64,000 bases of DNA. It comes from Rhizophagus irregularis. Lineage: Eukaryota. Shown here piece by piece: positions 13,818 to 55,228 of this stretch. Location of the stretch: the NCBI RefSeq assembly GCF_026210795.1, contig NC_089435.1, positions 186,001-250,000 of the forward strand. Direction: 5' to 3'. A program made the translations under genes and the position numbers. Below the pieces are notes generated by a model. The model saw nothing but the letters and a program-made list of their open reading frames with translations, searched no databases and was not told where the DNA came from. Numbering within the stretch: the first letter of the stretch is position 1; each line of letters begins with the position of its first letter.

Positions 13818-14496
13818 TCATGTAAGGGCATATAATATAACTTAATTTAGTAATTAGTAATTTAATGAATAGAAGAAGGCTTTGTATAATCACATGATTA
13901 TTGGCATTTGTGTAATAACCTTAAACCCTTAATTTATACATATTGTCATTTACCAAATTTCCTTTTTATGACTAATAGAATTAATCACTGTATACCTTGT
14001 TCGAATAAAGAAGTTTAGACAGATATTTTATATATTATTTTTATATTACAAATCATTAAATGACAAAGTCATGGTTGTCAGCCTTTTTGAATTTAAAAAT
14101 CTACAAGCTTTCATATGAAACAGCTTGTGTACCAGATTTATAATTTTAGTTTTTTTACGTTCGGCCGATCTTATAATGTGACGATGTGATTTAAGACATA
14201 ATATTTTTAGTCACTTTTTTATTTTTTATTTTTTTTTTTAGCTTCTCTCTTAAAAAATGTCATTAAATTTTCTTTACTTTATACATTCTTTTCGCTTCTT
14301 TTAACCTATTTGCGTTCGTTGTTTAATTCTTTGTTATTCAGTTACTATTTTTAACATACTAGCGTTCGCTTATTTTTTTATATAAATATCAACATTTTCG
14401 AAATATTATCCTCTCTTTTTTTTAGAAAAAAAAAAAATATATAAAAATTAATTTTAGATTGAATTATTGATTAATTCAAACCATTACTTTTAAACA

Positions 14497-16332: not shown

Positions 16333-16854
16333 ATCGATCATTTTATTAGATATTCATTTTACATTCTACTTACTTAATATGTATTAATTTTTAAAAAGAT
16401 ATTTAATTTTGGTAATTTTTAATCCGGAGATTGAATTTCAAAACCTTAGAAAATTCTTATAAAAATAAAGATGCAAATGTATTATAATACGTAACATGTG
16501 GCGGGACAATAATTTTTTAAAATTTCCTATTTTAATTCGTCACAATTATAAACAAAATTACAAAAAAATTACTGAATAAAGAAATATAATGAATTTACGC
16601 TAAACCACAACTATTCATGTCTTGTCTCCAAAAAAAGGTAGTTAAAAATTCATTCATTATGATATTTCTATAATAGATTGTATCATCAAAGATTTCAACT
16701 TCGAAATTCTATGAAAAGAATTTTTCGTATTTATGACATTAATTGACTTTTCATGTGATAAAATTCAAGTATAAAAACTCGAGAAAAAAATTCTCTTGAA
16801 ATTTTAATTTTGCTTTTTGAATTTTGAAATAATTTAAAGTATCTATTATTCAAA

Positions 16855-17459
16855 ATGAACAAAATTATTGGTATCACCCTTTTTCTTTTCTTCATTTTTT
16901 CATCTTATATCTCGGCAGTTCCAAATCCTATGATAAAACGTCAGGGGGACGGTAGCGATCCATTAAGTGGTTTCAAACCTTGTAATGGAACTACTTATCC
17001 AATTACTTTTACGAAGTTCAGTTTCGACCCAAATCCGATCGTAATAGGACAGACCTTAACTACGACAGTGGCCGGTACAAGCAATGAAGAAATAAAAGAA
17101 GGCGCAATTCAAACAACATCAGCATTTTCTAACGGACAATTAGTATTTAACCAACAAACTGATTATTGTAAAGTGTCAGTTGAACCAACCGGAGCAAAAT
17201 GTCCACTTCCACCTGGAGATTTTGATGCTTCTATAACATCCGTTCCCGCGGCTAGTTCCAATGATCCTTCAGGCACTACTTTATCATTTGATGTTGTATT
17301 TAAAAGTAAGAATAACTTATAAATTTATATTTATTCGATTTAAGATAAATGAATTGATTTTAATATATATATATATATTTTTCTTTAGTTATTAATCCTG
17401 ATAATACCGAATTGACATGCATGGAAGGACCATTTAGTATTACTTTCCCTCCAAAATAA
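16855..17459 (+). CDS. Secreted ML-domain (MD-2/NPC2-like) lipid-binding protein
   Basis: Signal peptide plus KR site; GFKPC...FDPNPIVIGQ...DYC...CPLPPG. Exon 2 (17389-17459) supplies the last Cys (LTCMEG). Confidence 0.85.
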
Positions 17460-22685: not shown

Positions 22686-24344
22686 TTAAATAAATGATGA
22701 CGTAAACTTACGATTAAGTAAATAATTAGAGAAATACCACATTATAGGAACTAATGGTACAATAAAATACCAAATTTGAGTCAATTCAAATACGCTATTT
22801 AATTTCATTGGTACAGTTCTTGGCGATTCATATCCTGTAAATCGTCCTTTTGTGTAAAATTCTTCCATCAACGCATCCTTCTCTATCCATCTTTGTCTTA
22901 GCCATTCTGTAAATTTATCCTCATCTTCGGGCATTTCTGAAATTGCATATTTTCGAATATGTAAATGTATATTACGTGGATATTGTCCTTCAAAATAAAT
23001 TTTTCTTAATGTATATATTTCTTCTGGAAATTGTCCTCTCCTCACTCCTTCTATCCCTATAGTTAAATCATATACATAATCAACGGATTTATGTAATGAT
23101 CCAGCACAAAAATGCAATCCTGTTGATCGTGGCAATAATACATGTTCATGATCCACCTAAAAAAGATGATCGAGAATAATTTAATCTAAATATATATATA
23201 TATACATTAAATTTATATTATCGACATACATACCAATCCAACTTTATCTGCATATTTTTTTGACGTTATACGCGTCACATCAGATACTACTGTTCCCTCT
23301 GGAAATATAAGCAACCATAAAGGTTCTTTGGAAGTAGCTAGAGTCGATAATGTCTTTGAAAACGGGCCTTTATCAGTTGCCCAATTTCGTTTCAAAAAAA
23401 TGTATTGGAAAAATTGCATACCCTAATTAAATAAGATATTATATTCGGTTCCGGTTTAGAAAATATAAACATATATATATTAAAATTTTTGTGTATATTA
23501 TTGTATACAACATATCATAAATAAATATTCAAAGAATATCAAATTAGTCAAAATTCTTACCCTATAAGTAATAAAAAAATGAATTAGTAATTGGATATAC
23601 AATCAATAATGCCAAAAGAACTGACAAAAACTTACCATCCAAATATCGGTAACCATTTTAGGGAATCTTTTAATATAATCTTAATTGCACCATGAGCATT
23701 AGCTAAATACGTAAAGCACCTAATATAGTAAAAATTGATAAAACACGCGCTTTGGGTCGAACCTTATGATAAATCAGTCGTTAATTCAACTGTATTGTGA
23801 GAAATAAGCTTACCACACGTATAACCAATCAGCGTATATCTATAAATGAGTTTATTAGTCTCAATTTAAATGACCACCTTGTATATTACTAATAGTATTT
23901 CTTACTTGATGATTTGCTATTAATATAAGTCTTTCGGGCATATCCAGTTCTACTTTAGCTCCGTTCCAACTTTGCTTTAAAACACCTTTGGCAGATTTAT
24001 CTACTGTGATAACAAAGTTGCTAGGAGCAAAGAACTGATTGATGGCAACCAATAAAATACCAAAACATCTTTGGGTATGTTTAATATAGCTTTGATAATA
24101 GGAATGCGAGAATGGCCAAAGCAAAAGACTAAGAAATTGAGAAAAGTTGAGCGCAGCTGACTGGCCAGCTAGAAAAAACGCGATTTGTATTATATTCAGA
24201 CTCAGGAGTAAGATAACGATGGTAGACTAAAACATAACGAGTAAGAGAAAGATTTTGATACTTACCAAAGAACACAACGAAAACAGCTGTGCGCACGAGC
24301 CACTGTACAAGATTTTGCGACTGCGGTTCCCCTAAAGCAGGCAT
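22686..24344 (-). CDS. PlsC-family lysophospholipid acyltransferase (LCLAT1/Cst26-like), multi-exon
   Basis: Motifs NHQ|IYADW, LKDSLKWLPIFGWGMQFF, FLKRNW, FPEGT, LLPRSTG, VYDLTI. ATG at 24344. The frame requires a 1-nt exon at 23561. Confidence 0.9.
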
Positions 24345-25139
24345 TTTTATAATCTCCAAAACAATAAGACGACCGTTAAACAAAAACAAGGTAAAAAAAT
24401 CTTTAGGGGAATAGAAAAAGAAAATTCTACTCTTACATAGGGCAAATACTGTGAAAAAAAGGAGGATGCATTATTTATATTTATAGTCATCAATTTTTTT
24501 AAGGTTTCTTAACAATAATAAGAGTGACACTTGTTAAACTCATGACCCCGTGAGGACGCATGGACGCAGGTCATGCGGATTGTTTACGTTATATAGAAAA
24601 TTGGCACTTCACTGTCACACTTTAATCCTAAATAAACCTGCAAATATATCAACAAATGATGATTATACACGATTTACACTTTCATTTTTGCACCCGATTC
24701 CCATAGCCATTTGAGGCTGTATTTGGTGTATCTATGGTCCATTTTGCTGCGGTTTACATAAAATTTTATAGGTTTAACTCTGATATGGTATTACCAAATG
24801 TACGTTGACGGGAGATACCAAAATTAACCCTCTGGACATTATGAATGATGGAATGAATTATCCAGTAAAAGATTTTTTTTATTCATGACTCATTAGTTTT
24901 ATATACATAAAAAATAATAAAAAAGCATAGAAACCTGGAATATAGCAAGATTTGATTTTGATTTTAACTTAACCAAGTTAAAACATTCGGTATGAATATA
25001 ATTAGAAAATCATTACTAATTTAGAAATTATATAAAGTATTAAGTTTATTACGCCCCATCATATTCTTCCGAAGAATGTATAAATAAGTGATCATCTTTT
25101 CTTTTTTTTTCCTTTTTTTGTTTTGATTTATTATCTAAA

Positions 25140-28466: not shown

Positions 28467-28762
28467 AGGACCCCGGATATCTAATATAAAGGTCATAATG
28501 GACTTTTGGCCAAAAACACTCCTTTTTGCTGAAACTCAAAAAATCGTTTTTTGTAAATATCTCAGCATCCAGTAATTCAATTTTAATGAACTTTTTTTTA
28601 TTTTGTAGCCCTCATTTAGCTCTACAATTTAAAAAAAGTTCATCAAAATTGGACCACTGGATGCCGAGATATTTACAAAAAACGATTTTTTGAGCCCCTG
28701 AAAAATGGGCCAATCTGCCGAAAGTGTGACTTATGACCTGTTTTGGAGATATCCGGGGTCCT
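28467..28762 (+). mobile_element. ~296-bp MITE, copy 1 (TIR AGGACCCCGGATATCT)
   Basis: Near-identical to the copies at 38119 and 51623; no TSD at this copy. Confidence 0.9.
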
Positions 28763-31745
28763 AAATAATTACTAAAGTACTAAATAATGAAAATTTAACT
28801 CCATGCGTTGTAATTGATATGTTAGATGGTAAAATTCAGCGGTGCAATTCTAAAAAAAAATTGAGACGACTTTGGCAAATGATTGGAACTTGGCAAATTG
28901 ACGATGAAGAAGTTAAAGCAAAAAATTTTTTAATTGAAGATTTAGGTATTTGTTATTCGCATTTTTTATATGATCAAAATCAATTGCATTCATCAAATTT
29001 AAAACAAACTAAAGATTATATGGAAAGTATTATTCATAGACGCAGATGTTTATTTTGTAATAAAAATAAAATTTTTTTTAGTCATGGTTCTAATTGTGAA
29101 AAACACTTATATAAAGTTATAGGTAAAAATATTCAGGTACCTTGTATAGAGCAAATGAAATGTGGTGCATTGCAAATATACCATTCTTTTATTTGTAATT
29201 CCAACAAATTCAAGTAAACATGCACGATATATATGTATGAATTGTTATGAAGAAAAGGATGGGCATATTTATCAATGTGTTGGATAAGGTATAAAAAAAG
29301 ATCCAAATTGTGATAACCTGTTACATCATAAAAATGATACCAAAAAGGCATTAGAAGTAATTGGATATTGGATTTTTAATATTGCTAATTCTGATAATTT
29401 AGCATTTCAAGAAAAAATTTTAGCACATTTAGCTCCTATTTTATGTATTATTAATATTCAAGAAAAATCTGAAACTACATCATCAATGCTACTATCAGTA
29501 CAAAATATAAAAAATGAAGTACCTTCTTTATTTATAATTCTTATTATTCTTATTTTAGTAAAATTTAATTACAATTTTGATAAAAAATTAAATTCTAAGA
29601 ATCTTACATCAAAACATTTTTTCGAATTTGGAGAAGCATTAGCACATTCAATAATACTCGTGAAAAATGAATTAAAAATTCACAAAAAATTACTTGAATC
29701 ACCTACTTCTATAAAAGAATATCGTTTTATATTTCCTTTATATTTAGTACAATTTTATGATGGTCTTTTAAAAACTTTATATGAAACAAAAAAAAAATTA
29801 TAGATAGACAAAGAAAATATCGTAAAAAACCATTAAAATTTTTAAATTATGAAAAAATTACTAAACAAACCACATTTTTTATTTCAATAATTTTAAACAT
29901 TGCATTTAAAGGATGGAAAATTTGGTTACCTTGAACAATGGCAAGTCTTTGCCGAAAACTAAAACTTTTGTCATCATTGCAGGGAATTTTAGAAGTTGTA
30001 AATATTACAAGCCACTTTCAAAGACATAAACAAAATTTGGAAAAAATTCGTGCTCTCTTAGTAGATCCAACTGATCGAATTTGCTATGAAAAGAATATTT
30101 GGAATCTTGGTATTATTGATAATGTGGATTTTAAAGAAACTACATTTGGTTATGGAAACATTTTTGACGCTATTAGAGAAAATGCTACATTACGGATACT
30201 CTTTCAATACCAACTACCTAATGAATTATCTGAAATTATTGAAATACAAGACAAAAATAAGCAAAAACTTTTTGGGCAAAATAATTTTTCACAACAAACA
30301 TTCAATATTTTTAATTCAGTTTTTGAACAATTACTTACGTTTAATGAAAATCTCACTCCTAATTATCGTTCAGATTTTAATGAAAATGATATACGTAATC
30401 AAATTATGACACATTTTGAAGGAAGTTTTAATCTTCCGCCTCCCAATGTTATAATTCTTGATGCTGAAAATCCACCATCAAGTGATTCCGCCGTGCATAA
30501 ATATCTAGAAATGTATAAAAATGAAATTGGTATGGAAAATAATGAATATATTAATGTAGTTGCAGATGAAGCTATTTTTAGACGAGGTATTAGTTATTGT
30601 AAAACAAATCAAAAAACAAAAATGATCCTTGGACAATGGCATACCAATAAGGATATGATGATGGCATTAATTACAATTTTTTCTGGTTACGGAATATTCA
30701 ATATGGCAGGAATATTAGGTGTATGATTTCTAGATAAATTAAAGAAAGGTGTAAATTTCAGAGCAACTTCAAGAATATTGGAATTGATTTGGATTTCCAT
30801 AGAATAGCAATTCATATATATGTAAAAAAGAAAAAACAGACATTAGATAATATTTTAAAAGAAGAAAATAATTGTGTAAAAGTTTGGTATTTATATTTTC
30901 AATGGGCTAGTTATTGGCGTGCACATTGGTTTGGTATTAGATGGGAATATTTGATTTACAACATGAAAGTTTAAAAGCTTTTTCACCTTTATTTTCCATT
31001 GCCGGTAAATCAAATTATGCTAGATCTGTAAGACTGTAACATATCATATATATTGCATAGAAAATAATCCTCTACTTCGTAAAATGCTTCGTACAGCACC
31101 ATCCATTAATTTAACAAGTCCTGGACATTTTTTTGCATATGACGAAGCATTAGAAACATTTGGAGTAAAATTTGTAAAACAAAATGTAATAAGAATTCCT
31201 GCAGATAGGGAAGAGTTGAAATTAAGAATAAAAGCTACTCAACTAGAAAAGGAACGAACAGAAATGCTGATTTGTGATTACATTGGAGATTCTGTTCAAA
31301 GTTTCTGACCACGTAATGTTCAAACTCAAAAGGAAAAGATTTGGGAGCTTGCACACTTATTGATAAATGCTTTTGAATCTTTAAATCCTCTTAAAAATTC
31401 AGTATTTGAATTCTGTAACAATTTAAATGATGATAGAGTTAACCAATTAATTATTGCGTATGATATTGGAATTAAGAGATTACAAACAATAGCAAATCAA
31501 GAAATTTTTTTAACAGAAAGTTATACAACTATTGGAAGAAGAGCAAGAAATATCACACGGGTTACAGTTGCTGATATTACTAAAATGAAAAAAGAAAAAA
31601 AATAGAAATAAGAGAAAAAGAAAAAGAAAAAAGGAAAAAAGGAGAGGGAGAGGGAGAGGAAGGGGGAAAGGGAGAGGGAGAGGTAGGAGGGGGAGGGAAG
31701 AGGGAGGGGAAGGGGAAGGGGAAAGAAGAAGAAACATGACTATGA
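28763..31745 (+). mobile_element. Degraded Academ/DUF6589-like transposase relic
   Basis: Collinear broken ORFs with IIDNVDF, VADEAIF, LGQWH and FSIAGKSNYARSV, Cys/His clusters at the N-terminus and a GA-rich (RG-encoding) 3' tract. Many stops and frameshifts. Confidence 0.55.
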
Positions 31746-38118: not shown

Positions 38119-38415
38119 AGGACCCCGGATATCTCCAAAACAGGTCATAAGTCACACTTTCGGCAGATTGGCCCATTTTTCAGGGGTTCAAAAAATCGTT
38201 TTTTGTAAATATCTCGGCATCCAGTGGTCCAATTTTGATGAACTTTTTTTTAAATTGTAGAGCTAAATGAGGGCTACAAAATAAAAAAAAGTTCATTAAA
38301 ATTGAATTATTGGATGCTGAGATATTTACAAAAAACGATTTTTTGAGTTTCAGCAAAAAGGGGTGTTTTTGGCCAAAAGTCCATTATGACCTTTATATTA
38401 GATATCCGGGGTCCT
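38119..38415 (-). mobile_element. ~296-bp MITE, copy 2 (inverted)
   Basis: Same TIRs; perfect 8-bp TSD attttaca on both sides. Confidence 0.92.
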
Positions 38416-40139
38416 ATTTTACAAATGTCTTATTATCTGCTCGCTTATTGACAGTTATTGTGTAAGTTAATAGCTATCTATTTGTATTAGTTCTTTTAGT
38501 TACATATTATTTTTTATTTATATATGTGAATAAAAATTGTTTATTTAATAATTATGATATACTGTTTATTTTTAATAATCAGAAAATTATACTTTTTATT
38601 TATTCAATTTTCTATTTATTTGAAAAATAAACAAACTGTAACAAAAATAAATGTAATATAATATAATTTTATTTAACCTGAATTTTATAATGACAAAACA
38701 TCCTTTATTTTTTTGATATATATTTTTTTAATTCAAATTACCTATGTTTAATTAAATTTAATTAAAGTTAATGATTTCACTTTTTACTCTGAATTATACT
38801 TCTCCGCTAATTAATTACGTCGTATTTCAGTGAACGGACCAATTCACTATTTATTATAAAATTACTATGAATTAATTACGTCTGTCAAAATACATTACGT
38901 CTGTCAAAATAAATTTAATTAGTATTTTGTCATTTTGACGAAAAGTATACTCTGAATTTCTAATAATTACCATTCCTTAGTTTTACATATAAAATTAAAT
39001 CCATATAAAATCTATATTGGATTCTTAAAACTACATAGAATAGTATAATTATGTAAATTTTACATATATTTTTTCATATAAATCTACATATTAGAATTAA
39101 TTCCTGATGCATAACTTTTAAAAATTATTTATAATAATAAGTATTTTAAAAAGTTATGATTTAAATATAAAAAAAAACAAATAATAAATAAAATAAATAA
39201 ATTTTACAAACATTTTGTATCTTAAAAAATAATCAATATTTTGCATAATTAGCATTAATTGAAAAATTAAAAGTGCTAAAAGACTCTAAAAATAAATACA
39301 AAAATAAAAAACAAAAAATCAACAAGATGATAATAATTTAAATAAAAATAAAAATCAATTCATATAATTACCAATATGATTTGTATTTTATTTAAAACAG
39401 GTTAACTATAAAATATTGTAAAGTAAATTGAATTTACAATTTATTATTTATAATATTAAATAATACTTAGGAAAGTTACATATATTAGATAATATTCAGT
39501 TTAATATAAACTTACTTGCTTCTCCCTCTTGTCAGATTTAATAACTCATCAAATTATAATATTTATAAATCATATGATTATCTGAAGTATAAGGACATTC
39601 TACTTCTAAGCATTTCAAATGCAATGTCATTCTATACTATAGCCTGATCAATGGATAAAATTTTATGTTGCATATATACAAATTTACTACATGTTACAGA
39701 TCTCATATTACTATTTATTATGTTAAATATATTGATATTGAAATTGCAATTTGCATAGCTAAAAAATAATATACAAGTGCATAACTGTATAACTCTGTGA
39801 TATCAATAAAACTTTAATAAATAAATAAGTAAAACTTTAAGCAGAAAGAGCTAAACTTTTACTTATTTTGATAGAAGAAGTACTATTGAAAAATTATATT
39901 AAAAGTGAAAACTGATTATATTGTGACTTAGAACAAAAGTCTTTAGTAAGATATCTTAGACAAATATTACACAAGAATTTTTAATATGATCAGCTACTGA
40001 CACAATTTTTTTTTGTGCAATTGATGATCATATAATTATGTAATTATACTGAATACTTCAAACGTTCTAATAGTTTCCGTTTTCTAGTATTATTAAGTGT
40101 AATGTAAGATTTTGGTTACACCCTCTCCCGCAAATATAT

Positions 40140-40281: not shown

Positions 40282-41438
40282 CCCTCTCCCCCTTTAATAA
40301 TTACGTAATATCTGTAAGTTCCCTTATTTAAAACTATATGAAATATGGTTGAATTTTAAGTAAAAAATCTACACAGACATATTTTACACATTTACGTTGG
40401 ATCCTTAAAATTATATAAAATAGTGTATGTAAATTTTATATAGAACTTTTCATATAAAAAAACATATCTTTTCACTGCTGTACAAAAAATAACAATTCTG
40501 AAGGCATGATAAAATCAAGATACTAAAAAATTTGCATAAATAACTCAATTATGGCTAAATAATATTTATTATAAATTCAAATGTCATGATTTTATTAGAA
40601 ATGAACAAGTTCAAAATAAATCACATTTCATATATTTTACATTTTATAGTTCTAACTTCCCTTTAAACATGAACTCTTGTACTCTTGTTTTATACTATTA
40701 AAAAAAACGCGAAAATTTTTCTGATAAAATGTTGTACAAAATATCTGACCAATAAATTCGTCAGGTCACGTTACCGAAATTTTTTTAGAGCGTCATGCAG
40801 ATCATGTAACAATAACCATTTATTCCATATCTGTTTACTGTGTCCCCTCGAACCCAGGTTAACATTCATAAGTCCGAAATGAAATAAAAGGTTTCTTCGC
40901 GGAAACAATATTAGTAGATAAATTTGCTTAATTTATTACTTTAATGAATTGAATTACAATATTAGCAAAAACAAAAAATACTAGTAGATAAATTCCTTCA
41001 GTTATTTTATCTATCTTCACGCGAAATCATTAAAAAAATTTTTCTACGGATTTATTGTGACCAAACGTTATCTGTGATATTAATAATCAGAATTGAGTTT
41101 TGTTTATGGATCACACGTTCTTTATTTTGTTTTATTATTATTTTCCCACATGCGTAACCGTTTTCGTTATCATGCACCAATGACAATATATCGTGACAAA
41201 CATTTTTGCTTTATAAAGTATAAAAGACTTTTGTCAATAAACAGATAATGATAATCGGAGAGTAAAATGCGATTTTACTCCTTATCTTCATTCTTCAATG
41301 ACTAAAAAAATAAGACAGTAACTCCGGAATTTTTCTATAAAATAGTGTGATTTAAATTTTTAAACCTTTAGCGAAATATCGACCCAATACAACAAAAAAA
41401 TTTAAAAATCTTAGATTACGCTATCTCGCCCTATCAAA

Positions 41439-41729
41439 ATGAGACTGAGACTTTTTATTCTTACTACCTTATTCCTTACTTTATCTTTGGCCTGGTTGGC
41501 CCAATCTGCTCCTGCTGCCATTAAATTTCCTCCTGCCGCTATCGAAGAAACCGGCCAATTTCTTCTAGAAGACAATCGACCACCTATCTCTGCTCATTTT
41601 TCTAATAGTCCACTTGATGAATGTCGTTATTGCGGTGGGTTCACACCTGACCAGTGTTCAATAGCATGTTACCGCTACGGCTATAAGTATTATTGGTGCA
41701 GTACATGTTATTGCAATTGTAGTAACTAG
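41439..41729 (+). CDS. Secreted 8-Cys defensin-like (CSalpha-beta) prepropeptide
   Basis: 96 aa: signal peptide, acidic/Pro propeptide, C-terminal Cx2Cx7Cx3Cx9Cx2CxCxC. TATAAAA lies ~100 bp upstream. Confidence 0.8.
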   Translation: MRLRLFILTTLFLTLSLAWLAQSAPAAIKFPPAAIEETGQFLLEDNRPPISAHFSNSPLDECRYCGGFTPDQCSIACYRYGYKYYWCSTCYCNCSN

Positions 41730-44035
41730 GGATGACACGTGAGTGTTTTAAAACAATTTTAGAACAGAATTTTCAAATATAATTGATTTTGATTGATTTT
41801 TATTATTTTAAGGGACAATCCAATTTACAAAGTGTAGTAAATTTCGAATCTACTCATAACTTTTGGTTATTACGACCTTTGCTATGTACAATAATAGCAG
41901 TTACAGTATTGCGTTTTTTATCATTATAGTTGAAGTTATATGAATTATATGATTGAAAATTTTATTTTTGTAATAACTTTTTATAAATAAAATAATTTAC
42001 TAAAGTACTTAAAAAAACGTATTATGTAAGCCTGATAAAATACCACGTGATTTTTTGTGGCGCATCAGCTTCATTTGCTTTTTGCATAATTTAAAAGTAT
42101 AAAACATATTAATTTCATGCTTTTAAAATTTTATGTTTTTAAATTTAGTAAAAAAATAAATTATTTATTTTCTATAAACAATAAAATAGATTTTATTAAT
42201 AAAAAAAACGATAAGTTCATTTGATTTTTATTGGCTGATTTTGATTCAAGAAAAATTGAAATATAAAATCACATGATTGTCAAGTATACAATAGCACCAT
42301 ATTAAATTTATTTAATAAAAGAAATTAATTTTATTTTTTGAAATATAATAAAAAGTAATTTTTCATCTTTTTCATCTAATATAGATAAGAGAAATTTAGA
42401 AATTTATTTTCGTCCATTATAGCACGTCTGAAATCTGTGCCAGGTTGAGGGCGCATGCGCCGCGCCACAGCCATTATCACGTGACATATACAATCAGAAA
42501 ATTCGCGATCATCGTGTCGCACTGATAAACATATCTCCCATATCGCGCTAGATTTTTTTGCTTTTTTCTCTTTCGAACACCAATATTTTTTTTTTTAATT
42601 TAATATAAAAATATAATTATTGTTACAGAATTGTGTTTATTTAAAAAAAATTTTATATAATTATTATTAAAAAACTTTAAATTTAATTATAAAAATGTCA
42701 AAAAAAATTATTAAAAAATTAATAAAACAAAAATTCAAATTTATAAATGTAAACAATTAAAATTTTTGAATTAGAAAGCCTATATTATAAATTTTATTGT
42801 AAATCATAATGCCATTATGAAAAATGTTATTCATAAATAAAAATAATACGTTGGCTAATTAAAAATGGTGTAAATTAGTATAAATGCTTTGTAAAAATGT
42901 TAAAGAATGAAGAATGTATGCTAATAAATATTATGAACAAACCTTGATTCAATTCGGCTGATTTTTTAATATGTTTTTGCTCAGACTATGTTCCTTTTTA
43001 CCGGCTTTTCTTGTTTTTCAACTAGGAATATTTTGTGGGTCCAAATTTTCCTTATCTTTAATAGTATTAGGTAGTTTCCACTTACATCCTGACCCTTCTG
43101 TTTTGCGTCGTTTGACAGATTCAACTTGTACACGAATCATAGAACCACTTCTTAAATTAACCATTAAATCTAAATCACGGTTTAGATCGTAAAGAAAAGA
43201 AGTTAGCTGAGAGATAGATTTCAGCTTAGCTGCTTTATAACGCTCTGAAAATTTATCTAATGCAGTACGCAGTTGTGCACCACCATCTTGATAGTCTCTT
43301 CTGACTTCTTCTAAGAAATCTGTGAATGCAGAAATATCGACAATTTGGATATTTTCACTTGTTTCTTTATGAGATAGAACGCCATATTCAATAGTTGTAT
43401 TACTATTTGATGTTTCTGATTCCGTTTGTAAACTTTGTGAAGTGAATTCTGCATGTAATGATGCATAAAAAGAACTATCTTTTGCAATATAACCTAAAGG
43501 AAATAATTTGAGTAAATGGATGTTATGATATTAAAACAGATTAATACGGTTACTTACCAAGTGCAATATAGGCATAAACTATACGATCATTTGAAGTCAA
43601 AGACGGAATAAAATTGAATGTTGATAAATGGAATTTGACTGAAACTGCATCCTGGTACTTGCAAGGTGCACCGGTCATGCCAATCGGACAAGAGCAAGTT
43701 CCAATTTCACTGTTAACAACATAGAAATTAGCATTTTGTGCACTTGGCACAAAAAATTCGTTTTTCACATTACTCTCACTGGTCAAAATAGTCCAAATCG
43801 GCTAGAAATCGGATGTCTGATTTTAGGCTGAATTTGGTGATAAATATGGCCGATTTATTAATTTAGGCAAAGTTCTGATTGGCAGGCCGATCGATGCCGA
43901 TCAGAATGTCTGAATTGTATCTGAATTGCTTAGTATTTTTAATCCGAATTGTTTAAAAAATATTATTCATAAATTTACCGAATTGCAGTGAATTTATTCT
44001 GAATTATGGTAAATTTGTGACAAAATTTTCTGAAT

Positions 44036-44238
44036 TGTAGTAAAATTTATTCCAAATTGTAGTAAAATTTATTCCGATTTGTAGTAAAATTTATTCCAAT
44101 TTGTAGTAAAATTTATTCTGATTTGTAGTAAAATTTATTCCGAATTGTAGTAAAATTTATTCCGATTTGTAGTAAAATTTATTCTGATTTGTAGTAAAAT
44201 TTATTCTGATTTGTAGTAAAAAATTTATTCTGATTTGT
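44036..44238. repeat. 22-bp tandem repeat, ~9 copies
   Basis: Unit tgtagtaaaatttattcYgatt. Confidence 0.9.
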
Positions 44239-44439
44239 ATTCTGAATTGTATCGCAAATTACAGTAAATTTTATTCTGAAATTTAAAATATTACATATAC
44301 ATATAAAACAATTTCACCAAAAATCATCCCAACTTTCTAACAAATCCGGTATACGTTAAATTCCTTAATTCCCATTTGTTTCTACAAATTGGAGATGATT
44401 TTCCTACAAAAAAAAAAAGAAAAAACATTAAAATAACGT

Positions 44440-46400
44440 TTTTTTTTAAGTTTCAAGTTTCAAAAATCAAAACGTTACCTGTAGGATGGCAAATCGAAGC
44501 CAATTTCCATACAAAAAAATTAATAAAATATAATAAAAAATGTTAAATTAAACATTTTTATTAAGTTTCGTCAAAAAGTTTCGAAAAATCGAAACTTTAC
44601 CTGCGGGATTCTGGTACAATTTGGAGCTGATTTCCTGCAAAAAAAAATAATAAAAAATAATAAAAAAAACGTTAAATTAAACGTTTTTTTTATTAATTTG
44701 CGTCAAAAAGTTTCGACAAAACTTTACCTGCGGGATTCTGGTACAATTTGGAGCCGATTTCCCTGCAAAAAAAATAATAAAATCTAATAAAAAAACGTTA
44801 ATTTAAACGTTTTTTTATTAAGTTTCATAAAGTTTCGAAGTTTCATAAAGTTTCGAAACTTCGAAACTTTACTTGCGGGATTCCGGTATCCAATTTGGAG
44901 CCGATTTCCTGCAAAAAAAATAATAAAAAATAATAAAAAAAACGTTAAATTAAACGTTTTTTTTATTAATTTGCGTCAAAAAGTTTCGAAAATCGAAACT
45001 TTACTTGCGGATTTCGGTATCCAATTTGGAGCTGATTTCCTGCAAAAAAAATTAATAAAAATAATAAAAAAACGTTAAATTTAAACGTTTTTTTATTAAG
45101 TTTCGTAAAGTTTCGAAACTTTGAAACTTTACTTGCGGGATTCCGGTATCCAATTTGGAGCTGATTTCCTGCAAAAAAAAAATATTAAAAATAATAAAAA
45201 AACGTTAATTTAAACGTTTTTTTATTAATTTGCGTCAAAAAGTTTCGAAAATCGAAACTACTTGCAGGATTCCGATATCCAATTTGGAGCTGATTTCCTG
45301 CAAAAAAAATTAATAAAAATAATAAAAAACGTTAAATTTAAACGTTTTTTTATTAATTTTTTTCAAAAAGTTTCGAAAAATCGAAACTTTGCATGTGGGA
45401 TTCCGGTATCCATATTGGAGCCGATTTCCCTGCAAAAATATTAATAAAATATAATAAAAAACGTTATATTAAACATTTTTTATTAATTTTTTTCAAAAAG
45501 TTTCAAAAAATCGAAACTTTGCATGTGCAATTCCGGTATTCATATTGGAGCTGATTTCCCTGCAAAAATATTAATAAAATATAATAAAAAACGTTATATT
45601 AAACGTTTTTTATTAATTTTTTTCAAAAAGTTTCGAAAAATCAAAACTTTGCATGTGGGATTCCGGTATCCATATTGGAGCCGATTTCCCTGCAAAAAAA
45701 AATAATAAAATATAATAAAAAATGTTATATTAAACGTTTTTTATTAATTTTTTTCAAAAAGTTTTGAAAAATCGAAACTTTACCTGCGGGATTCTGGTAT
45801 CCATATTGGAGCCGATTTCCCTGCAAAAAAAAATAATAAAATATAATAAAAAACGTTAAATTAAACGTTTTTTATTAATTTTTGTCAAAAAGTTTCGAAA
45901 ATTTAAAACTTTACGGTATTCCTACAATAATATTAAAAAAAAAAACGTTAAACGTTTTTTTCAAAGAAGTTTTGAAAATGCGAAACTTATCTGGAATATC
46001 GGCGTCCACGTTGGAGCCGATTTCCTATACAAAAGTAAAAAAAAACGGTTTTAGTAATATTAAAAAACGTTTTTTAAAGTTTCAAAACTTTTGTTTCGAA
46101 ACTTACCTTTGGAAATCAGTATCCAAGTAGGAGCCGATTTCCTATATAAAAGTATAAAAAAAAATGTTAGAAAACGTTTTTTTTTATAAAGTTTCAAAGA
46201 AATTCTTCAAAACTTACCTTTGGAATTCGGTATCCAAGTAGGAGACGATTTCCTATATAAAAGTATAAAAAAAACGTTAGAAAACGTTTTTTTTATAAAG
46301 TTTCAAAGAAATTCTTCGAAACTTACCTTTGGAATTCGGTATCCAAGTAGGAGCCGATTTCCTATTTAAAAGTATAAAAAAAAATGTTAGAAAACGTTTT
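44440..46400. repeat. ~130-bp (then ~110-bp) tandem satellite with internal palindromes
   Basis: Core gcgggattccggtatccaatttggagcYgatttcctgc recurs ~10 times, plus diverged flanking units. Confidence 0.9.
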
Positions 46401-46844
46401 TTAAAGTAATAGTTTTGCAAAAAAAAATTAATAAAATCAGAACGTTAACTAATGTTCCGATTGAAAATATTAAATGAAAAGTTAAAAAACGTTTCGTAAA
46501 AAATAAAAATGTTAAAAATTGGAACATTATTTCCGATAAAAAATTAAAAAAAAATCCCAAAACGTTTAAAACCGTTTTGTTTAGGAATGAAGTTAGATGA
46601 AGATAAAGTTTCGAAACTTTAGTTTAAATAAAGTCTAAATTCGGTAATAGATCAACTAATTGCCAGATTAATTTTACTGTGGCTGCGGCTTAGTACATCA
46701 TAAGTTGATTTTGAAAAATCGTTTATTCGAATAACTTCTGAAATTGAGACAATTTTTCCATGCCCAAAAGTTTTGATTTCGACCAGTGCAATTTGATATA
46801 AAAGTGCCATAAATCAGACAATATTAGGCAAATTTTAAGCTGTT

Positions 46845-47545
46845 AATCAAATATGATAATTTTTTGCTAAATTTTTATTGAATTTTTATTGAATTGTTAA
46901 TTTTCCATAAATCTGAAGTACATATTTGAATATTGTAAATTTTAGGTTGATTTACAAATTTGTCAGATTTTTTTTTTGATATCAATCAGCCGTCAATCAA
47001 ATATAATGATTTTTTAACAAATTTTTGTTGGATTTTTATTGAATTTTTATTGAATTGTCAATTTTGCATAAATCTGAAGTACATATTTGAATATTAGGTA
47101 AATTTTAGGTTGATTTGCCATTTTGTCAGATTTTTTTTTTTAATTTCAACCAGCATCAATCAGCCGTCAATCAAATATAATGATTTTTTGCTGAATTTTT
47201 ATTGAATTTTTATTGAATATTTATTGAATTGTCAATTTTCCATAAATCTGAAGTACATATTTGAATATTGGGCAAATTTTAGGTTGATTTGCTATTTTGT
47301 CCATTTTTTTTTTAATTTCAACCGCATCAATCAGCCGTCAATCAAATATAATGATTTTTTGCTGAATTTTTATTGAATTTTTATTGAATATTTATTGAAT
47401 TGTCAATTTTCCATAAATCGGAAGTGCATATTTGAATATTGGGCAAATTTTAAGTTGATTTGCCATTTGTCCATTTTTTTTTGATTTCAACTAGCATCAA
47501 TCGGCCGTCAATCAAATATAATGATTTTTTGCTGAATTTTTATCA
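46845..47545. repeat. ~170-bp tandem repeat, ~4 copies
   Basis: gccgtcaatcaaatataatgattt...cataaatctgaagtacatatttgaatatt recurs. Confidence 0.85.
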
Positions 47546-50500
47546 AATTGTCTGATTGGCATCAATCAGATGTACCGATTTATAATGTTAGTCAATTTTG
47601 GTCTGATTTTTGGCCGATTTTCCATATGTCCGATTTTTTTAATTTCGACCAGTGTCTTTTGAATTAAATCCATATTTATGGTGTCCCATCCGTGACATAA
47701 AAAATGTTTTGCAAGTCAAAGATATCCTGGACATCTATGCGCAAAGCTGAGCAATCGAAGCACGTAAAATCTCTCCATATTAATTGTGATAAACTGAAAA
47801 ACTTGAACGCAGTTGTAAGCTTGCGTTCTTGCGAACACTAAATCTTTTAGTATTCAAAACTCCTCTCAATGTAATTATTTGTGTTATTTCCGCGCATATG
47901 TAGTTCAGAGCGGAAAGAAAGGGCCCAAAAACAACGGCGTTTCCATAAAATCTCAAAATGCTTGTGTAGTTGAGGATAATGTTCATAAAACGTTTGCCTG
48001 AGTTCATAATAATGCGTATGCATTTCAAAGCCCGATAGTGCATAAAGAATTTTTTTCATCTTTTCCATAATAGGCCCGATATTCTTTATCAATATGATGC
48101 TTCGAATTATGGAGCCATCTCCAAAATGCCTGGAGGACGTGGAATGTGCACAGGAGACGGATCTCTTGTATAATTTAATAAAATCAGTAAGTTATCTCGA
48201 ATTTAAGAAAAAAATTAGATTTGAAATAAAAACCTTACCCTCTGGCCAACATAGTTCAAGAGCATTGCACTCAGCACTCGAATCGTCAGTAAGTAAAACC
48301 TTTGGACCGACTTGTGGTTCACGTTCGAAAAAGGCATGTTACGGGAGAATCATTTTAAGTAGATTTAATGTCTTTTCTAACGTTATTTCAGACTCATCCG
48401 AAGTGATAAATAAGCCGAGAGGCAGGGCTCCAACCGTGCAACTCGTATAAAGAAGAGTAAGTGATGTATTTAAAGATTCAAAAGATGCCGAAGCGTCTAT
48501 ATAGCATAATTCACCAGATTGTAAAACCTTTTCGTGTACTCGGCTCATTAAATTAGTTACAACGCAAAGAATAAAGTATTTTCCGTGTGTGAATCATATT
48601 TTTGCAATATTACTCTTCCATGACTTAACTTATTGTAATTGTTTATGACCTCTACTAGACGTTTAAATATTGAAGTACCATTACGATCACCAAGCGCTGT
48701 TTCACGATATTTTTGAAAAAGTTTAGCAATGTAATCGTAATCGGGATTAGTCGCTCGGTCTGCAAGTAATACTAAAAGTTCCTGCTCATCCGCAGCGCTA
48801 AAATAAAGTGCATCTTCGTAGGCGTACATTACCGATGCGAGGGAGTGGCCATCTTTAAAAAGTTCCAAAAATTTTTCGTGAACTCCTCCATTGACATGTC
48901 AAAAGCTTAATGATTCTGCAGAATTTACAACATGATTATGAGTAAACCGTAAATTAACTTCCAGGGGATGGCTCAATTCAATGTTACAATTTTCTAGTCT
49001 AAGGTGAATCATAGCGGTGCAATTTGTATTTCATAATCGAGATGATTGTAGGCGTTTTAACTCAGGATTTCCTTGCTTTTCTTTTACTAAGTTACTGTGA
49101 ATACAGTGTCTTTTCTCGTGAAAAAGAACCTTCTTTCCTTTGATTTTGTAATGCTTAGATTCTGGCATTGTCGTTTTTGACTTGGATTCAAATGACAGAA
49201 ACCATTCGCGTACTTTCTTTTTATCTTTAATATCTACGAACGCGTCTAGTTCAAATTGTGGAATTTTGAAATTCTCAAAAGTTTTATGCGGCGGCAAAAC
49301 ATTAAAGTTTTTGATTAAATATGATTGATGCGGAGGGAGAATTGGTTTTAATATTTCGGGGAGGGAATCCCATGGAAAGAACTAAAATAAATACGAAATT
49401 TTATAAATTAATCTAGGATAAAGATAAATGACAAATGATAAGGATAAATAAAAAAAGAATTCAATCTATTTAATTAAGATAATAAAAAATTCTTATTTTA
49501 CAAATAATCAATAAAAATATACTAAAATAATACTATTTAACATGAAGTGATAATAACGAAATAAAAGATTAAATGTTACACAATAAATTAATAATAAATA
49601 AATACTACTATGTAAATAACGAACTAATAAATATTATATATGATAAATTAAGATTAAAATTAACGCTATATTTAATAAACTTGGGTCCCGTGATCACCAG
49701 ACATTAAAGATAGGGCCTTTATGGCTAAGATGACCTGTTACTAAACGAAGTCTACCTACAGAGTCAAACGATCATTTGACAGTGCACACGTGGGGTACTA
49801 CCGGTTTGTAGTTTAATTATATTAGAGTAGTTATTAGGAAATTTTACTTCGTATATATTTTTATTTTTTTACTTTAATAAAACTGCAAATGCGCTGCGGA
49901 AAAAAAAAAAAATATTTAATAAACTAAATAAACACAATATTAATATATTTATCCTCATAAAATAAACTCAAACTCTATATTAAACAAACTCTAATATAAT
50001 TAAAAATGTAAGCAATATACCTATTTTACCCAAAAACTCATTTTTTTCAATCATTTTTAACTTAAATATATTATAGAAAATGGTATTTTTAAAACAAAAA
50101 GAGCTTCGACAATATGAAGAAAAGTATGCAAAATTGACTTACTTGTGGGTTATTTTGTGATTCGATGTCCATACTGTTTACTGTGGTTTAACGGATCACA
50201 ACTTGAGCTGTGTAACTTTGTTTCTTTGTTATAAATTAGGCCATTAGACTATTTACCAAATAAAAAATACTTTACAAATATTAAAAAGTAGTCCTACCAC
50301 ACTTTCTGAAATCAAAATAAAACTTTGTTCTTTGTTTTATTTGAAAGAGAGTGTGAGAAAAAAGCAAAAAAATCTAGCGCGATATGGGAGATATGTTTAT
50401 CAGTATGACACAATGATCGCGAATTTTCTGATTGTATATATCACGTGATAAGGGATGTGGCGCGGCACATGCGCCCTCAATCTGGCACAGATTTCAGACG

Positions 50501-50655
50501 TGCTCCATTATAAGCCAATTACGTAATTGATTGATATTAACCAATCTGTGCTACAACAGATTTCTTTATATATACCATTTTTTCTCTTTTCAAACTGTAC
50601 AACCACACATATCTTTTTATCCGAACTAAAAATCAGTAATCAATATTTACTAATC

Positions 50656-52130
50656 ATGTCACTTCTTAAGATCGAAGATATAAAAAAATTGAATGATTTT
50701 GAACTTAATATTTTTTTAAAACAGAAATTGCCAGATATTAAAAATTACATAGATATTATCACAGACCAAGAAGTTGATGGTCAAACTTAACTTTTAATAT
50801 CTATTGTTTTATTTTTTCACCTTTTCCTGAATACTCAATTATTTCTTGTGCTTTTCTTTCCTACTTCTTATCATCAAACCTGCCCAAAAAATACATTTGC
50901 GTTATCGTAAAGCAACCTGTTGTTGGTAAGTGAGTCATAATAGATTTGGTTAACGCAACCTGTTTTTTGCAATTATAACTTGTGCTAAAGGCTCTTTTTT
51001 TTTCTGTGTAGCTGGCACGAAATCCCCAAACTACGTTTGTATATTCGTGGATAATTCCAATTTTATAGCACAAGGAGAGTATTCCATATGCTATAAAAGA
51101 CCCTTAAACGACCTTCTTTATTACAATCAAATCATTTTTGATTATGGTTTACTTCTTAAATAAGTTGTGGGTGATTGTGAGTTACCCCCGTCATTGTAGG
51201 TTCTGAAATCCTGATAAATGACTCAATCTTTAAAGAAGGATATGACGTCAATGTGTTTGGACGAAATTGTGCAAGCAGAGAAAAGGGTGTCGACAATTTC
51301 ATCACACTTAAAATTGCCAAAATGATTTACACAGAAAGTCCTGGTATATTGGTTTTAATTGCCAGAGACAGTGATTATTATGGAACATTATTGGAAGCTA
51401 TCGACTACAATTGGAAGGTCGAGTTTTGGAAATTGGGTATATTAAATTCACTTAATAAACACGAACCTACTGATCTTTGTACAAAACATTTGTCCCTGTG
51501 AAAGTATCAGATCAATTTAAGCTCTGTACTTCTATTCCCTATGGGGGATCAGGTCACATCAAGAGCAATAATAAAATACACTACATACAACTGGACCCAA
51601 TTCTGTTTATTATAGAATGAATAGGACCCCGGATATCTAATATAAAGGTCATAATGGACTTTTGGCCAAAAACCCCCCTTTTTGCTGAAACTCAAAAAAT
51701 CGTTTTTTGTAAATATCTCAGCATCCAGTAATTCAATTTTAATGAACTTTTTTTTATTTTGTAGCCCTCATTTAGCTCTACAATTTAAAAAAAAGTTCAT
51801 CAAAATTGGACCACTGGATGCCGAGATATTTACAAAAAACGATTTTTTGGGCCCCTGAAAAATGGGCCAATCTGCCGAAAGTGTGACTTATGACCTGTTT
51901 TGGAGATATCCGGGGTCCTGAATGAATACCCTTGAGATCACATGTGATACTATAGTTGAAGATAAAGAGATAGTGAGTGGTTTGCCAATTTAAATTTATT
52001 CAGTTGGATTCACTGGGAAGGCAAGAATATCATTTTATATCTTAAATGAAAGAGAATTGAATATCACAAAGGAATGGATTGTGAGGGAACGCAAAGGAAT
52101 ATCAATTTGGGAGAAGAATGTGAGCCATTT
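50656..52130 (+). pseudogene. NYN (PIN-fold) ribonuclease-like pseudogene with SAM-like N-terminus, interrupted by a MITE
   Basis: IFVDNSNF (~51040), REKGVD, LVLIARDSDY...WKVEFW; stops and frameshifts. Confidence 0.65.
51623..51919 (+). mobile_element. ~296-bp MITE, copy 3
   Basis: Same TIRs; perfect 8-bp TSD gaatgaat. Confidence 0.92.
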
Positions 52131-53189: not shown

Positions 53190-55228
53190 TTATTTTGCAC
53201 TAATACTAATAGTAATAACTTCGCCATTCTGAATATTTGCACCTTTAATAGGACTTACTAAAATAGAATTTCCATTTTTTTTCCATTCAACTTTACCATT
53301 CGGGGAAATATTTATAATAAACCCATTTGGGTAATGATATATTTCTTGAATTTTTATAACAGTAGGTTTTTTTATAGATGGATTGATTTCATAAACTAAT
53401 TTAAATTCTTCATCAAATTCCATACTAAGAGTATTTCCTGAAACTGCTTCGGCATAAGTTCTAGAAAATATTTTTGCAACATCTGGCCTTACTTGTCCAG
53501 TATTGGGATCAATTAAACCATCACCAGGTAATTGTCTTGTTAATGGAAAAAAATCCTTGTATTGCCATCCTATCCACGATTGTAAGTATTTATCAGCTGC
53601 TTGTATAATTGTAAGCAACCCTGGAAGATTTTTCCCACTATCATAAGCTGCTTCAAATTCTGTTAGCTAATATAAGGTGGAAACCAAATTTAAAAAAATC
53701 ATTACTAAATTACGCAAAGAAACTATTGAGTTTAATTTACCATTGATGCACCACCAGTTCGTCCAATATCTTCTAAATGAACTTGAAAATCCATATTAGG
53801 TGGCTTTATTCTAACTTCTTTATAATAATGATAACCAAATGAACTTCTATTTTGATAAATAGGACCTCCTGGTACATGATCAAAGTTATTACCGAACAAA
53901 TCCCACGTTACTCCTGTAAAGAATACAATTCCATTATTATCAACTTTGCGCAATTCGGCACTAATTGCATCCCAAAATGGACCTAAATTTGTACGTGTAT
54001 TTACTTTGAAATAAATTAATGTTGGTTAGCATTTTAAATAAGGAAGATATTATTGAATTCTTTGGAACAAGTCTTACCACTTGGTAACCAAAGACCAAGA
54101 TTACTATAGGTATCTCCGGGCCAAGGCTCATTAAGTAAATCATAACCAAGAAGATTGTTACTATTCTTAAATATTGATGCAATTTTTGCCCATTGAGCTG
54201 CAAATGCGTCTCTTAAACCATCATAATTATCATATAATCTCTGCCATGCCACATTTACTGCACGTGAGAGATACAATAATGCCCAATTCACTCTTCCACA
54301 AGTTACTTTATCTGGAAGTCCTGTTATAGGATCATATATTGCTGCTGTTAGTCCTATAGGTATCGGAAACGGCCATGTACCTTCTGTTCGAACTGCCCAT
54401 CTTGGAAACTACAAATTTAAGGGTTTAACCAAATGAAAAGATCGTTTCTTCGTATGCATATTAATTACTTACACCTTCTCCACAAAACTTATCGCTCATT
54501 ACATCCTAAATTAATAACCAATAAAAAAAAATTTATTAAATTTTTTTTTAAAAAAATTAAAAAGACAAAAGGGTTTGTTTACCTGATGAGAATCTAATAG
54601 CACGTAAATTCCATACAAATTACACTTGTCTACAATACTTTTTATGATTTTTAAATAAGTTTCATTATATTTTCCTCGTACTGGTTCAACGCCAGCCCAT
54701 AGAACTCCAAGTCTAATAACATTCATATTAACACTGGCCAAAATCTAGTCGCAGAGTATGTTTTTGTTTAGGAAGTGATCAAACTGTTTTGGACATAAGC
54801 ATAAGCATGTACGGTATTAAAAAAAGGTCAAACCTTCATATCTTCTTCGGTGAACGAAGTTACAGGATCAAATGCATCAATTCTAGGATAGTATGGGAAT
54901 CCTTTATAAACCTTTCAACAAAACCAAATAAGTATCGAAAAAAAATATTCTAAACATTTTCTTTGATGAAGAATATACTAGTATATTGTTTTATATAACT
55001 TTTTTTCTTTGGATATCATAATGGTGAAGGGTCTTTACATACAACGTTCAGTCCACGAAAGAATCTCTGTCTACCGAATTCATCAATATAATGATCATTT
55101 TTAATTCCGATAATCTTTGGCGTGGGTTCCGATGTAGCACGTGTATCTAAGTTTGGAATAGCGATCACATGATATATGTATATTACAGAAAGTAATAAAA
55201 CTAAATGCACTTTTCGTCTAATTATCAT
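53190..55228 (-). CDS. Secreted GH5 endoglycoceramidase-like glycosidase (7 exons)
   Basis: Exons join in frame: DEFGRQRFFRGLNVVYK, NVIRLGVLWAGVEP, LLDSHQD, CGEGFPRW, GYDLLNEPW (acid/base Glu), YHYY, LTEF (nucleophile), FSRTYAEAVSG. Hydrophobic N-terminus. Confidence 0.88.

What the first reader, a model, noticed from the sequence alone, without database searches (positions are those of the whole stretch)
41439..41729. Tyr-rich 8-Cys defensin-like peptide isolated in a transposon-rich block
The predicted mature region ECRYCGGFTPDQCSIACYRYGYKYYWCSTCYCNCSN has the Cx3C (helix) and CxC (strand) signature of CSalpha-beta defensins plus an extra Cys pair. It lacks the usual GxC gamma-core Gly, is aromatic-rich rather than strongly cationic, and has no dibasic maturation site after the acidic propeptide. 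It is the only clearly intact gene between ~27 and 53 kb, ~700 bp from a MULE end. Candidate antimicrobial or effector.
Basis: partly seen in the sequence, partly recalled or inferred. Interest (0 to 1): 0.7.

Follow-up and report, generated by a model that had tools for sequence, protein, structure and literature searches.

The report
Overlooked defensin-like peptide of mycorrhizal fungus
A root-symbiotic (mycorrhizal) fungus transcribes a small gene whose likely secreted product is predicted to fold like a defensin and likely acts against neighbouring microbes; it belongs to a peptide family that Pfam does not recognise, and several published gene models splice its cysteine-rich part away.

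Summary
Real gene, confirmed. 41439-41729 (+) encodes a 96-aa precursor (signal peptide, acidic pro-region, 8-Cys domain); its closest named relatives are Rhizophagus irregularis proteins. Contigs from 3 of 3 guessed-RNA runs cover the whole CDS, with one intron 9 nt after the stop. At least four public gene models instead splice out the Cys domain; a 2026 antimicrobial screen scored one such model as non-antimicrobial. AlphaFold2 predicts a CSαβ (cis-defensin) fold (best pLDDT 88; 2 of 5 models confident), and weak structural hits are mostly defensins and scorpion peptides. No Pfam family matches. A full HMMER search found 22 distant, unnamed relatives with the same core. Six-Cys members suggest canonical bonds C65-C87, C73-C92, C77-C94 plus an optional C62-C90. 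All 34 cores compared carry Tyr, Trp or Phe where defensins usually have the GxC glycine, though the search profile favoured this. The MULE 692 nt downstream is real, but the gene lies outside it. Best guess: a near-neutral, target-binding antimicrobial (0.5); activity is untested. It is not risin, the one R. irregularis defensin found in print. Verdict: new variant family of a known kind.

The parts
41336..41342 (+). TATA-like element, 28 nt before the 5' end seen in run X2
   Evidence: sequence; function inferred
41370..41738 (+). exon 1: 5' UTR, whole CDS and 9 nt of 3' UTR (the X5 contig reaches back to 41297)
   Evidence: contigs of X2, X5, X8. In X2 the loose letters before 41370 look like a template-switch oligo (recalled), which would mark the 5' end and the + strand
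41439..41516 (+). predicted signal peptide, residues 1-26
   Evidence: hydropathy; the SignalP-trimmed model in table S5 of PMC13127573 starts at residue 27
41517..41615 (+). acidic pro-region, about residues 27-59; no dibasic site; cleavage point unknown
   Evidence: pLDDT below 50
41616..41729 (+). Cys domain (about residues 60-96, 8 Cys, Y85 at the usual Gly position) and stop codon; predicted CSαβ fold; bonds C65-C87, C73-C92, C77-C94 and C62-C90 inferred
41739..41812 (+). 74-nt GT..AG intron in the 3' UTR
   Evidence: joint in 3 of 3 guessed-RNA runs; run X15 reads through unspliced
41813..42017 (+). exon 2 (3' UTR); AATAAA at 41986-41991; contigs end at 42005-42017
42422..50503 (-). neighbouring broken MULE: inverted ends, 9-bp target duplication at 42413-42421 and 50504-50512, interrupted transposase; does not contain the gene

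Best explanation
The gene is transcribed and spliced and encodes a likely secreted prepro-peptide whose 35-37-residue end is predicted to fold as a four-disulfide cis-defensin (CSαβ) and likely inhibits neighbouring microbes by binding a specific cell-envelope target rather than by charge-driven lysis. Shown: ORF, transcript, UTR intron, family, Cys pattern. Predicted: signal peptide, helix plus two-strand fold. Inferred: disulfides C65-C87, C73-C92, C77-C94, with an extra C62-C90 bond tying the N-terminal loop to the hairpin turn; removal of the acidic pro-region by a protease other than Kex2; an aromatic binding face (Y64, F68, Y82, Y84, Y85, W86). Guessed: the target is lipid II or another envelope lipid or glycan of soil or hypha-associated microbes.
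For: Transcript with a clean GT..AG joint in 3 of 3 guessed-RNA runs from three studies. 13 of 14 guessed-RNA holders in 8 studies hold 0.84 of the words, against 0.82 expected for the spliced form. AF2 puts the helix on C73-x3-C77 and strands at 84-87 and 92-95. By title (my classing, recalled), 20 of 25 Foldseek rows and 26 of 33 VIA rows are natural CSαβ peptides; best are nasonin-1M (Z 3.8, rmsd 1.1 Å, 30 aligned) and BmBKTx1 (Z 3.9, rmsd 1.1 Å, 30 aligned). The best PDB sequence hits are engineered insect defensins (E 0.076-0.12). Three relatives keep exactly the six canonical Cys. C62 and C90 are both present in 20, both absent in 12 and split in 2 of 34 cores. Signal, acidic pro-region, then Cys domain is the layout of fDEF1/fDEF2 fungal defensins (PMC4165938); 32 of 34 have a hydrophobic N-terminus and 25 of 34 an acidic pro-region. 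An anionic fungal defensin, AfusinC, kills Gram-positive bacteria (PMC6181372). UniRef names one member an invertebrate-defensin-profile protein.
Against: No activity data. No structural hit is significant alone (Foldseek 0 of 25 at E<=0.001; VIA 0 at Z>=5), and only 2 of 5 models exceed pLDDT 70. No Pfam defensin hit for P0001, the 16 members of alignment A2 or the 26 distant hits. The c-loop (STCY) has no cationic residue, which PMC5234102 calls a premise for antibacterial action; zytrisin-1, lacking it, was inactive, and a large side chain at the Gly position is said to force a structural change. AMAPEC scored the intact paralog RhiirFUN_006278 non-antimicrobial (0.44; pro-region attached, pLDDT 50). 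The C62/C90 co-occurrence may rest on only 1-3 evolutionary events. The runs laid are guessed RNA, not on record as RNA.
Confidence: 0.5

Rival explanations
1. A defensin-fold signal or effector without antimicrobial activity. It would bind a receptor on the plant root or on the fungus's own hyphae, as the LURE peptides or the Aspergillus defensin anisin1 do.
For: Near-neutral charge and no cationic c-loop residue. Fungal defensins that lost antibacterial activity are known (PMC5234102). Holder runs carry five organism labels plus one unlabelled run; this would fit expression in colonised roots if the other labels are host plants (inferred, labels are coded). AtLURE1.2 is among the weak fold hits (Z 2.1).
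Against: 22 distant relatives with varied precursors share the core, which fits a general function better than a symbiosis-specific one. No excess variation in the mature domain.
Confidence: 0.25
2. A glycan-binding wall or surface peptide. The conserved GYxxY aromatic face would stack on chitin, chitosan or glucan, to coat the hypha or hide wall fragments from the plant.
For: Y82 and Y85 are nearly invariant and 9 of 37 residues are aromatic; aromatic stacking on sugars is general knowledge. Odd Cys totals in many paralogs would allow cross-linking.
Against: No carbohydrate-binding domain among the sequence hits or the leading fold hits. P0001 itself has an even number of Cys.
Confidence: 0.12
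3. An ion-channel blocker aimed at soil animals that graze on hyphae.
For: Several of the best fold matches are short scorpion peptides. The Atlas ranks Toxin_5 clusters first for the mature part (score 0.83, a lead only). Plectasin is reported to block K+ channels (search listing).
Against: No KCXN motif (the sequence is W-C-S-T; motif described in PMC11561630). Weak charge. Short-looped CSαβ peptides match one another whatever their function.
Confidence: 0.07
4. A metal-binding peptide. The two CxxC motifs (62-65 and 87-90) would bind Zn, Cu or Cd instead of forming two disulfides.
For: The two CxxC motifs are inferred neighbours. Some plant defensins mediate zinc tolerance (PMC5234102).
Against: 12 of 34 cores lack both C62 and C90 and keep the framework. 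The secretory route favours disulfides (general knowledge).
Confidence: 0.06

Closest known systems
Fungal defensin-like peptides fDEF1/fDEF2 (plectasin, micasin, eurocin, AfusinC)
   Same: Signal + acidic pro-region + CSαβ framework; weak fold hits to eurocin and micasin (Z 2.6) and plectasin NZ2114 (Z 2.2).
   Different: Eight Cys with an inferred C62-C90 bond; Tyr in place of the GxC Gly; no basic processing site; no cationic c-loop residue; no Pfam hit.
Risin (the one R. irregularis defensin listed in PMC4165938)
   Same: Same species; defensin-like.
   Different: Risin is 55 aa, charge +6.1, with an intron in the signal peptide. This peptide is 35-37 aa, charge 0 to +2, with no coding intron. 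Risin's sequence is in a figure that I could not see.
Short arthropod CSαβ peptides (nasonin-1, insect defensins, BmBKTx1, chlorotoxin-type Toxin_5)
   Same: Closest predicted geometry (rmsd 1.1 Å over 30 residues) and the same x3-x9-x4-x1 Cys register; N-terminal CxxC and four disulfides as in Toxin_5 (recalled; Atlas lead).
   Different: No KCXN, no GxC Gly, different extra disulfide.
Plant defensins and drosomycin (four disulfides)
   Same: Eight Cys; weak fold hits (Z 2.2-2.9).
   Different: Their fourth bond joins the first and last Cys and they have a third strand (recalled; described for class V in PMC11561630). Here the extra pair is inferred to be first Cys to c-loop Cys, and no N-terminal strand is predicted.
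Zytrisins of Zymoseptoria (PMC5234102)
   Same: Non-cationic fungal defensin-like peptides; atypical members also lose the Gly.
   Different: No pro-region, two introns, six Cys; atypical members change the CX3C or CXC spacing, which is intact here.

Membership tests
CSαβ (cis-defensin) fold superfamily | Cys framework C...CX3C...C...CXC | tested here: met
   C65, C73-x3-C77, C87, C92-x-C94; definition in PMC5234102
CSαβ (cis-defensin) fold superfamily | Helix over CX3C packed on a two-stranded sheet carrying CXC | tested here: met
   Prediction only: pLDDT 88, 2 of 5 models confident; hits weak one by one
CSαβ (cis-defensin) fold superfamily | Disulfides 1-4, 2-5, 3-6 | tested here: inconclusive
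CSαβ (cis-defensin) fold superfamily | Secreted precursor | tested here: met
   Prediction only: hydropathy; listed in the SignalP secretome of PMC13127573 table S5
gamma-core (GxC) antimicrobial defensins | Gly two residues before the fourth canonical Cys | tested here: not met
   Y85; aromatic in 34 of 34 cores (Y 28, W 5, F 1). PMC5234102 describes the Gly as the majority state, not as part of the framework
gamma-core (GxC) antimicrobial defensins | Antimicrobial activity | not testable with these tools
   no assay
Pfam Defensin_2 / Gamma-thionin / Toxin_2, 3, 5 | Profile match at the gathering score | tested here: not met
   0 families for P0001 and its mature part at E<=10; none of these families for 16 close and 26 distant members
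fDEF1 / ancient invertebrate-type defensins (plectasin, risin) | Cationic residue in the c-loop | tested here: not met
   c-loop is S-T-C-Y; feature from PMC5234102
Other fungal families fDEF2-fDEF8 | Sequence similarity to the published family alignments | not testable with these tools
   the alignments are figures that are not held; Zhu 2008 was not read
alpha-KTx channel blockers | KCXN motif | tested here: not met
   W86-C87-S88-T89; motif as described in PMC11561630
Plant defensin / drosomycin type | Fourth disulfide between first and last Cys, with a third strand | tested here: inconclusive
   C62 co-occurs with C90, not with the invariant C94, and no N-terminal strand is predicted; neither is experimental

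The most novel reading that the evidence does not exclude
This is the prototype of an unrecognised, widely spread branch of cis-defensins (C-G-G-x5-C-x3-C-x3-G-Y-x-x-[YW]-x-C-x4-C-x-C). In it an aromatic residue replaces the gamma-core glycine, two optional disulfides (C62-C90; position 84 to C-terminal tail) are added or dropped, and the target is not the anionic membrane of classical defensins. In arbuscular mycorrhizal fungi it is a fungus-made peptide that polices the hyphal microbiome or signals to the root, hidden so far by wrong gene models.
Probability: 0.3. Interest if true: 0.75.

Novelty: new variant of a known kind. Interest (0 to 1): 0.52.

Why it matters
How arbuscular mycorrhizal fungi control the bacteria on and in their hyphae is an open question, and these fungi are hard to manipulate genetically (own knowledge). 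A 35-37-residue peptide can be made and assayed directly. The gene is cut wrongly in several public models, and the published antimicrobial screen of this secretome (PMC13127573) scored a truncated form (probability 0.003), so it has not had a fair test. The family also offers a natural series with six, eight and ten Cys for asking how a CSαβ fold accommodates a large aromatic residue at the position usually reserved for Gly. The limit: defensin-like peptides in fungi are well known, and no function is shown here.

Tried and rejected
Transposon capture or mobility: rejected; the gene lies 692 nt outside the MULE end and its target duplication. Fast evolution of the mature domain among close relatives: not supported (Fisher p 0.25, 7 proteins). 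Identity with risin: rejected on size, charge and intron position. Alternative splicing that removes the Cys domain: 0 of 3 laid runs show such a joint, but contigs drop rare forms, so a minor isoform is not excluded. 3 of 5 NCBI models and the table S5 model were reproduced as splice choices on the window; P0012 and P0015 were not. Contig depth (71-528) was not used to rank expression. No listed run is on record as RNA, and four added guessed-RNA runs hold none of the words; this is no evidence either way. RNA cover of the rest of 27-53 kb was not obtained. The whole-precursor model was poor (pLDDT 52) and was not used for fold searches. Atlas scores (0.86, 0.83) are leads only. Dropped from the core count: 4 of 26 new HMMER hits (P0035 and P0053, long repeats; P0036 and P0048, ending after the helix). 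The phage tblastn gave only chance hits (E 0.7-0.8). Prokaryote and viral contig scans were not obtained. NCBIfam: no hit for P0001. Earlier findings of this scan: nothing in 5 look-ups. Literature: no description of this gene or family in searches, nor in the supplements held for PMC5293756, PMC11035146 (only 13,790 characters held) and PMC4165938 (891 characters). bioRxiv supplements, figures and most subscription papers were not visible and may list it.

Full report
1. Observation. The + strand ORF 41439-41729 encodes 96 aa exactly as described: a hydrophobic N-terminus, an acidic middle, and a C-terminal domain with spacing C-x2-C-x7-C-x3-C-x9-C-x2-C-x-C-x-C. The loose CSαβ pattern occurs once in the window and in 2 of 100 local shuffles; the exact pattern in 0 of 100. 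No whole genome is held. The cluster holding the identical protein has 7 members; the 5 named ones are Rhizophagus irregularis (4) and R. diaphanus (1). I therefore take the window to be R. irregularis or a very close relative.

2. It is a transcribed gene. Of 24 runs listed, 20 hold the stretch; none is on record as RNA and 14 holders are guessed RNA. I laid 3 of these 14, from three studies, plus X15. Each guessed-RNA contig covers the whole CDS and skips 41739-41812 (74 nt, GT..AG), 9 nt after the stop; X15 reads through. The contigs start at 41297-41385 and end at 42005-42017. Loose letters before 41370 in X2 look like a template-switch oligo (recalled). A TATA-like word lies 28 nt upstream, and AATAAA lies shortly before the 3' ends. 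13 of the 14 guessed-RNA holders, in 8 studies, hold 0.84 of the words; the spliced form predicts 0.82.

3. Public models often break it. NCBI models P0005 and P0013 are reproduced by adding an intron 41635-41701 to the real one, and P0014 by 41635-41722; P0012 and P0015 were not reproduced (3 of 5). The model RhiirFUN_023261 in table S5 of PMC13127573 uses 41687-41762, loses the last four Cys, and was called non-antimicrobial (0.003, pLDDT 39). None of these joints is seen in the 3 runs laid, though contigs drop rare forms. My inference is that gene finders pulled the UTR intron into the CDS. The intact paralog RhiirFUN_006278 was also called non-antimicrobial (0.44), with its pro-region attached.

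4. Close family. Three word-indexed searches gave 5, 13 and 15 clusters. Named members come from R. irregularis, R. clarus, R. diaphanus, Glomus cerebriforme, Funneliformis caledonium and F. geosporum. R. irregularis has 8-, 9- and 10-Cys paralogs; in a tree of 18 proteins the 8-Cys and 10-Cys groups each form one side of a starred branch. UniRef calls one R. clarus member an invertebrate-defensin-profile protein. Pfam has no defensin hit.

5. Wide family. HMMER over 1.84 billion representatives gave 32 hits at E<=0.001, 26 of them new. 22 of the 26 have the full core; 4 were dropped (two long repeats, two ending after the helix). None hits a Pfam defensin family. Their taxa are unknown, as the library has no names. 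P0034 and P0036 have signal peptides like the Glomeraceae members; the others look unlike them. The Atlas's top clusters for the whole precursor are mostly arthropod (0.86 and 0.83, leads only). Across 34 cores (12 close, 22 distant): C62 and C90 are both present in 20, both absent in 12, split in 2; a Cys at position 84 and a C-terminal Cys are both present in 16, both absent in 16, split in 2; P0038, P0051 and P0058 keep just C65, C73, C77, C87, C92 and C94, the canonical six. The tree is poorly resolved and needs only 1-3 changes for the C62/C90 label, so the Fisher p values overstate the case; the six-Cys members are the better argument. The residue two before C87 is aromatic in 34 of 34, with the caveat that the search profile had Tyr there. 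32 of 34 have a hydrophobic N-terminus, 25 of 34 an acidic pro-region, and 5 of 34 a dibasic site near the domain.

6. Fold. The precursor model was poor (pLDDT 52). The 40-residue domain with 19 sequences gave 88.0, 79.6, 59.6, 58.5 and 52.0, with a helix at 70-79 and strands at 84-87 and 92-95, so C90 sits in the hairpin loop. Foldseek: 25 rows, none at E<=0.001, 20 CSαβ by title. VIA wide: 33 rows at Z>=2, none at Z>=5, 26 natural CSαβ by title; best nasonin-1M, Z 3.8, rmsd 1.1 Å over 30 residues. The second look gave BmBKTx1 at Z 3.9, rmsd 1.1 Å over 30. The classing by title is mine, from recall. Each score is below the tools' significance levels; the agreement of framework, model and hit class carries the claim. 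Profile searches of PDB sequences give the same register at E 0.08-0.2. One HMM alignment put C62 on the first defensin Cys, whereas most structural alignments start near C65.

7. Surroundings. A MULE begins 692 nt after the stop: inverted ends at 42422 and 50503, 95% alike, with a 9-bp target duplication, transposase pieces broken by stops and frame changes and internal tandem arrays. The gene is outside it. Other ORFs in 27-53 kb are fragments; RNA cover of that interval was not obtained. Variation among 7 close proteins is not enriched in the mature domain.

8. Mechanism. Shown: transcription, splicing, family. Predicted: secretion, CSαβ fold. Inferred: four disulfides, pro-region removal at an unknown site, an aromatic binding face. 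I favour an antimicrobial that binds an envelope target (0.5). The precursor layout and fold are those of fungal defensins, some of which bind lipid II, and an anionic one is active (PMC6181372). Against this, PMC5234102 reports an inactive defensin lacking a cationic c-loop residue, which this peptide also lacks, and argues that a large residue at the Gly position changes the structure. Rivals: signal or effector (0.25), glycan-binding surface peptide (0.12), channel blocker against grazers (0.07), metal binding (0.06).

9. Known versus new. It works like a cis-defensin by prediction and meets the Cys framework. It fails the GxC Gly, the Pfam profiles, the cationic c-loop of plectasin-type defensins and the KCXN motif, so I file it under none of those families. 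It is not risin. I could not compare it with the published fDEF alignments, which are figures. What I saw of each paper: PMC4165938, parts 1-2 of 3 and a supplement search; PMC5234102, parts 1-3 of 4; PMC6181372 and PMC11561630, passages; PMC13127573, passages, supplement part 1 and motif searches; 10.1101/2022.12.16.520752, passages (0 mentions of defensin); PMC5293756 and PMC11035146, supplement searches only; the rest, search listings. No description of the gene or family was found in searches; the library lacks most subscription journals.

10. Verdict. A real, expressed, often mis-annotated peptide gene; a new variant family of the CSαβ kind; function untested. Interest 0.52.

Noticed in passing
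window 5418-26345: Cluster of 7 similar genes for secreted-looking proteins (ORFs of 272-490 aa). 6 of 7 hit the bacterial metalloprotease model NF038122 (E 2e-10 to 8e-8, below its cut-off of 80 bits); the three scanned had no Pfam hit. The copy at 14494-15819 lacks the HExxH motif and may be an inactive paralog.
   Followed up: partly
window 28467-28772, 38119-38418, 51620-51929: Three copies of a palindromic element of about 300 bp, 97-99% alike, in both orientations; looks like a recently active MITE.
   Followed up: partly
window 44028-47543: Tandem arrays with units of 22, about 130, 109 and 171 bp lie inside the MULE, between the catalytic part (about 47.7-49.4 kb) and a SWIM-like part (about 43.0-43.8 kb; motif recalled) of the transposase.
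   Followed up: partly
window 50655-51501: Interrupted NYN-domain gene (E 0.0011, below cut-off) just right of the MULE.
   Followed up: partly
window 28765-31602: A run of same-strand ORF fragments without a meaningful Pfam hit; probably a decayed transposon gene.
   Followed up: no
proteins P0003, P0004, P0017-P0019, P0022-P0025, P0027, P0028, P0030: Many paralogs have an odd total of Cys, often with a conserved Cys in the pro-region that P0001 has lost; covalent dimers or a pro-to-mature bond are possible.
   Followed up: no
proteins P0022/P0031; P0032, P0033 and RhiirFUN_006274: Truncated family copies are numbered next to intact ones in F. caledonium and R. irregularis, suggesting tandem duplication and decay or further wrong gene models.
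   Followed up: no
window 16828-17322, 22686-24470, 53190-54408: Ordinary genes: ML-domain lipid-binding protein, acyltransferase, and a GH5 glycoside hydrolase.
   Followed up: no
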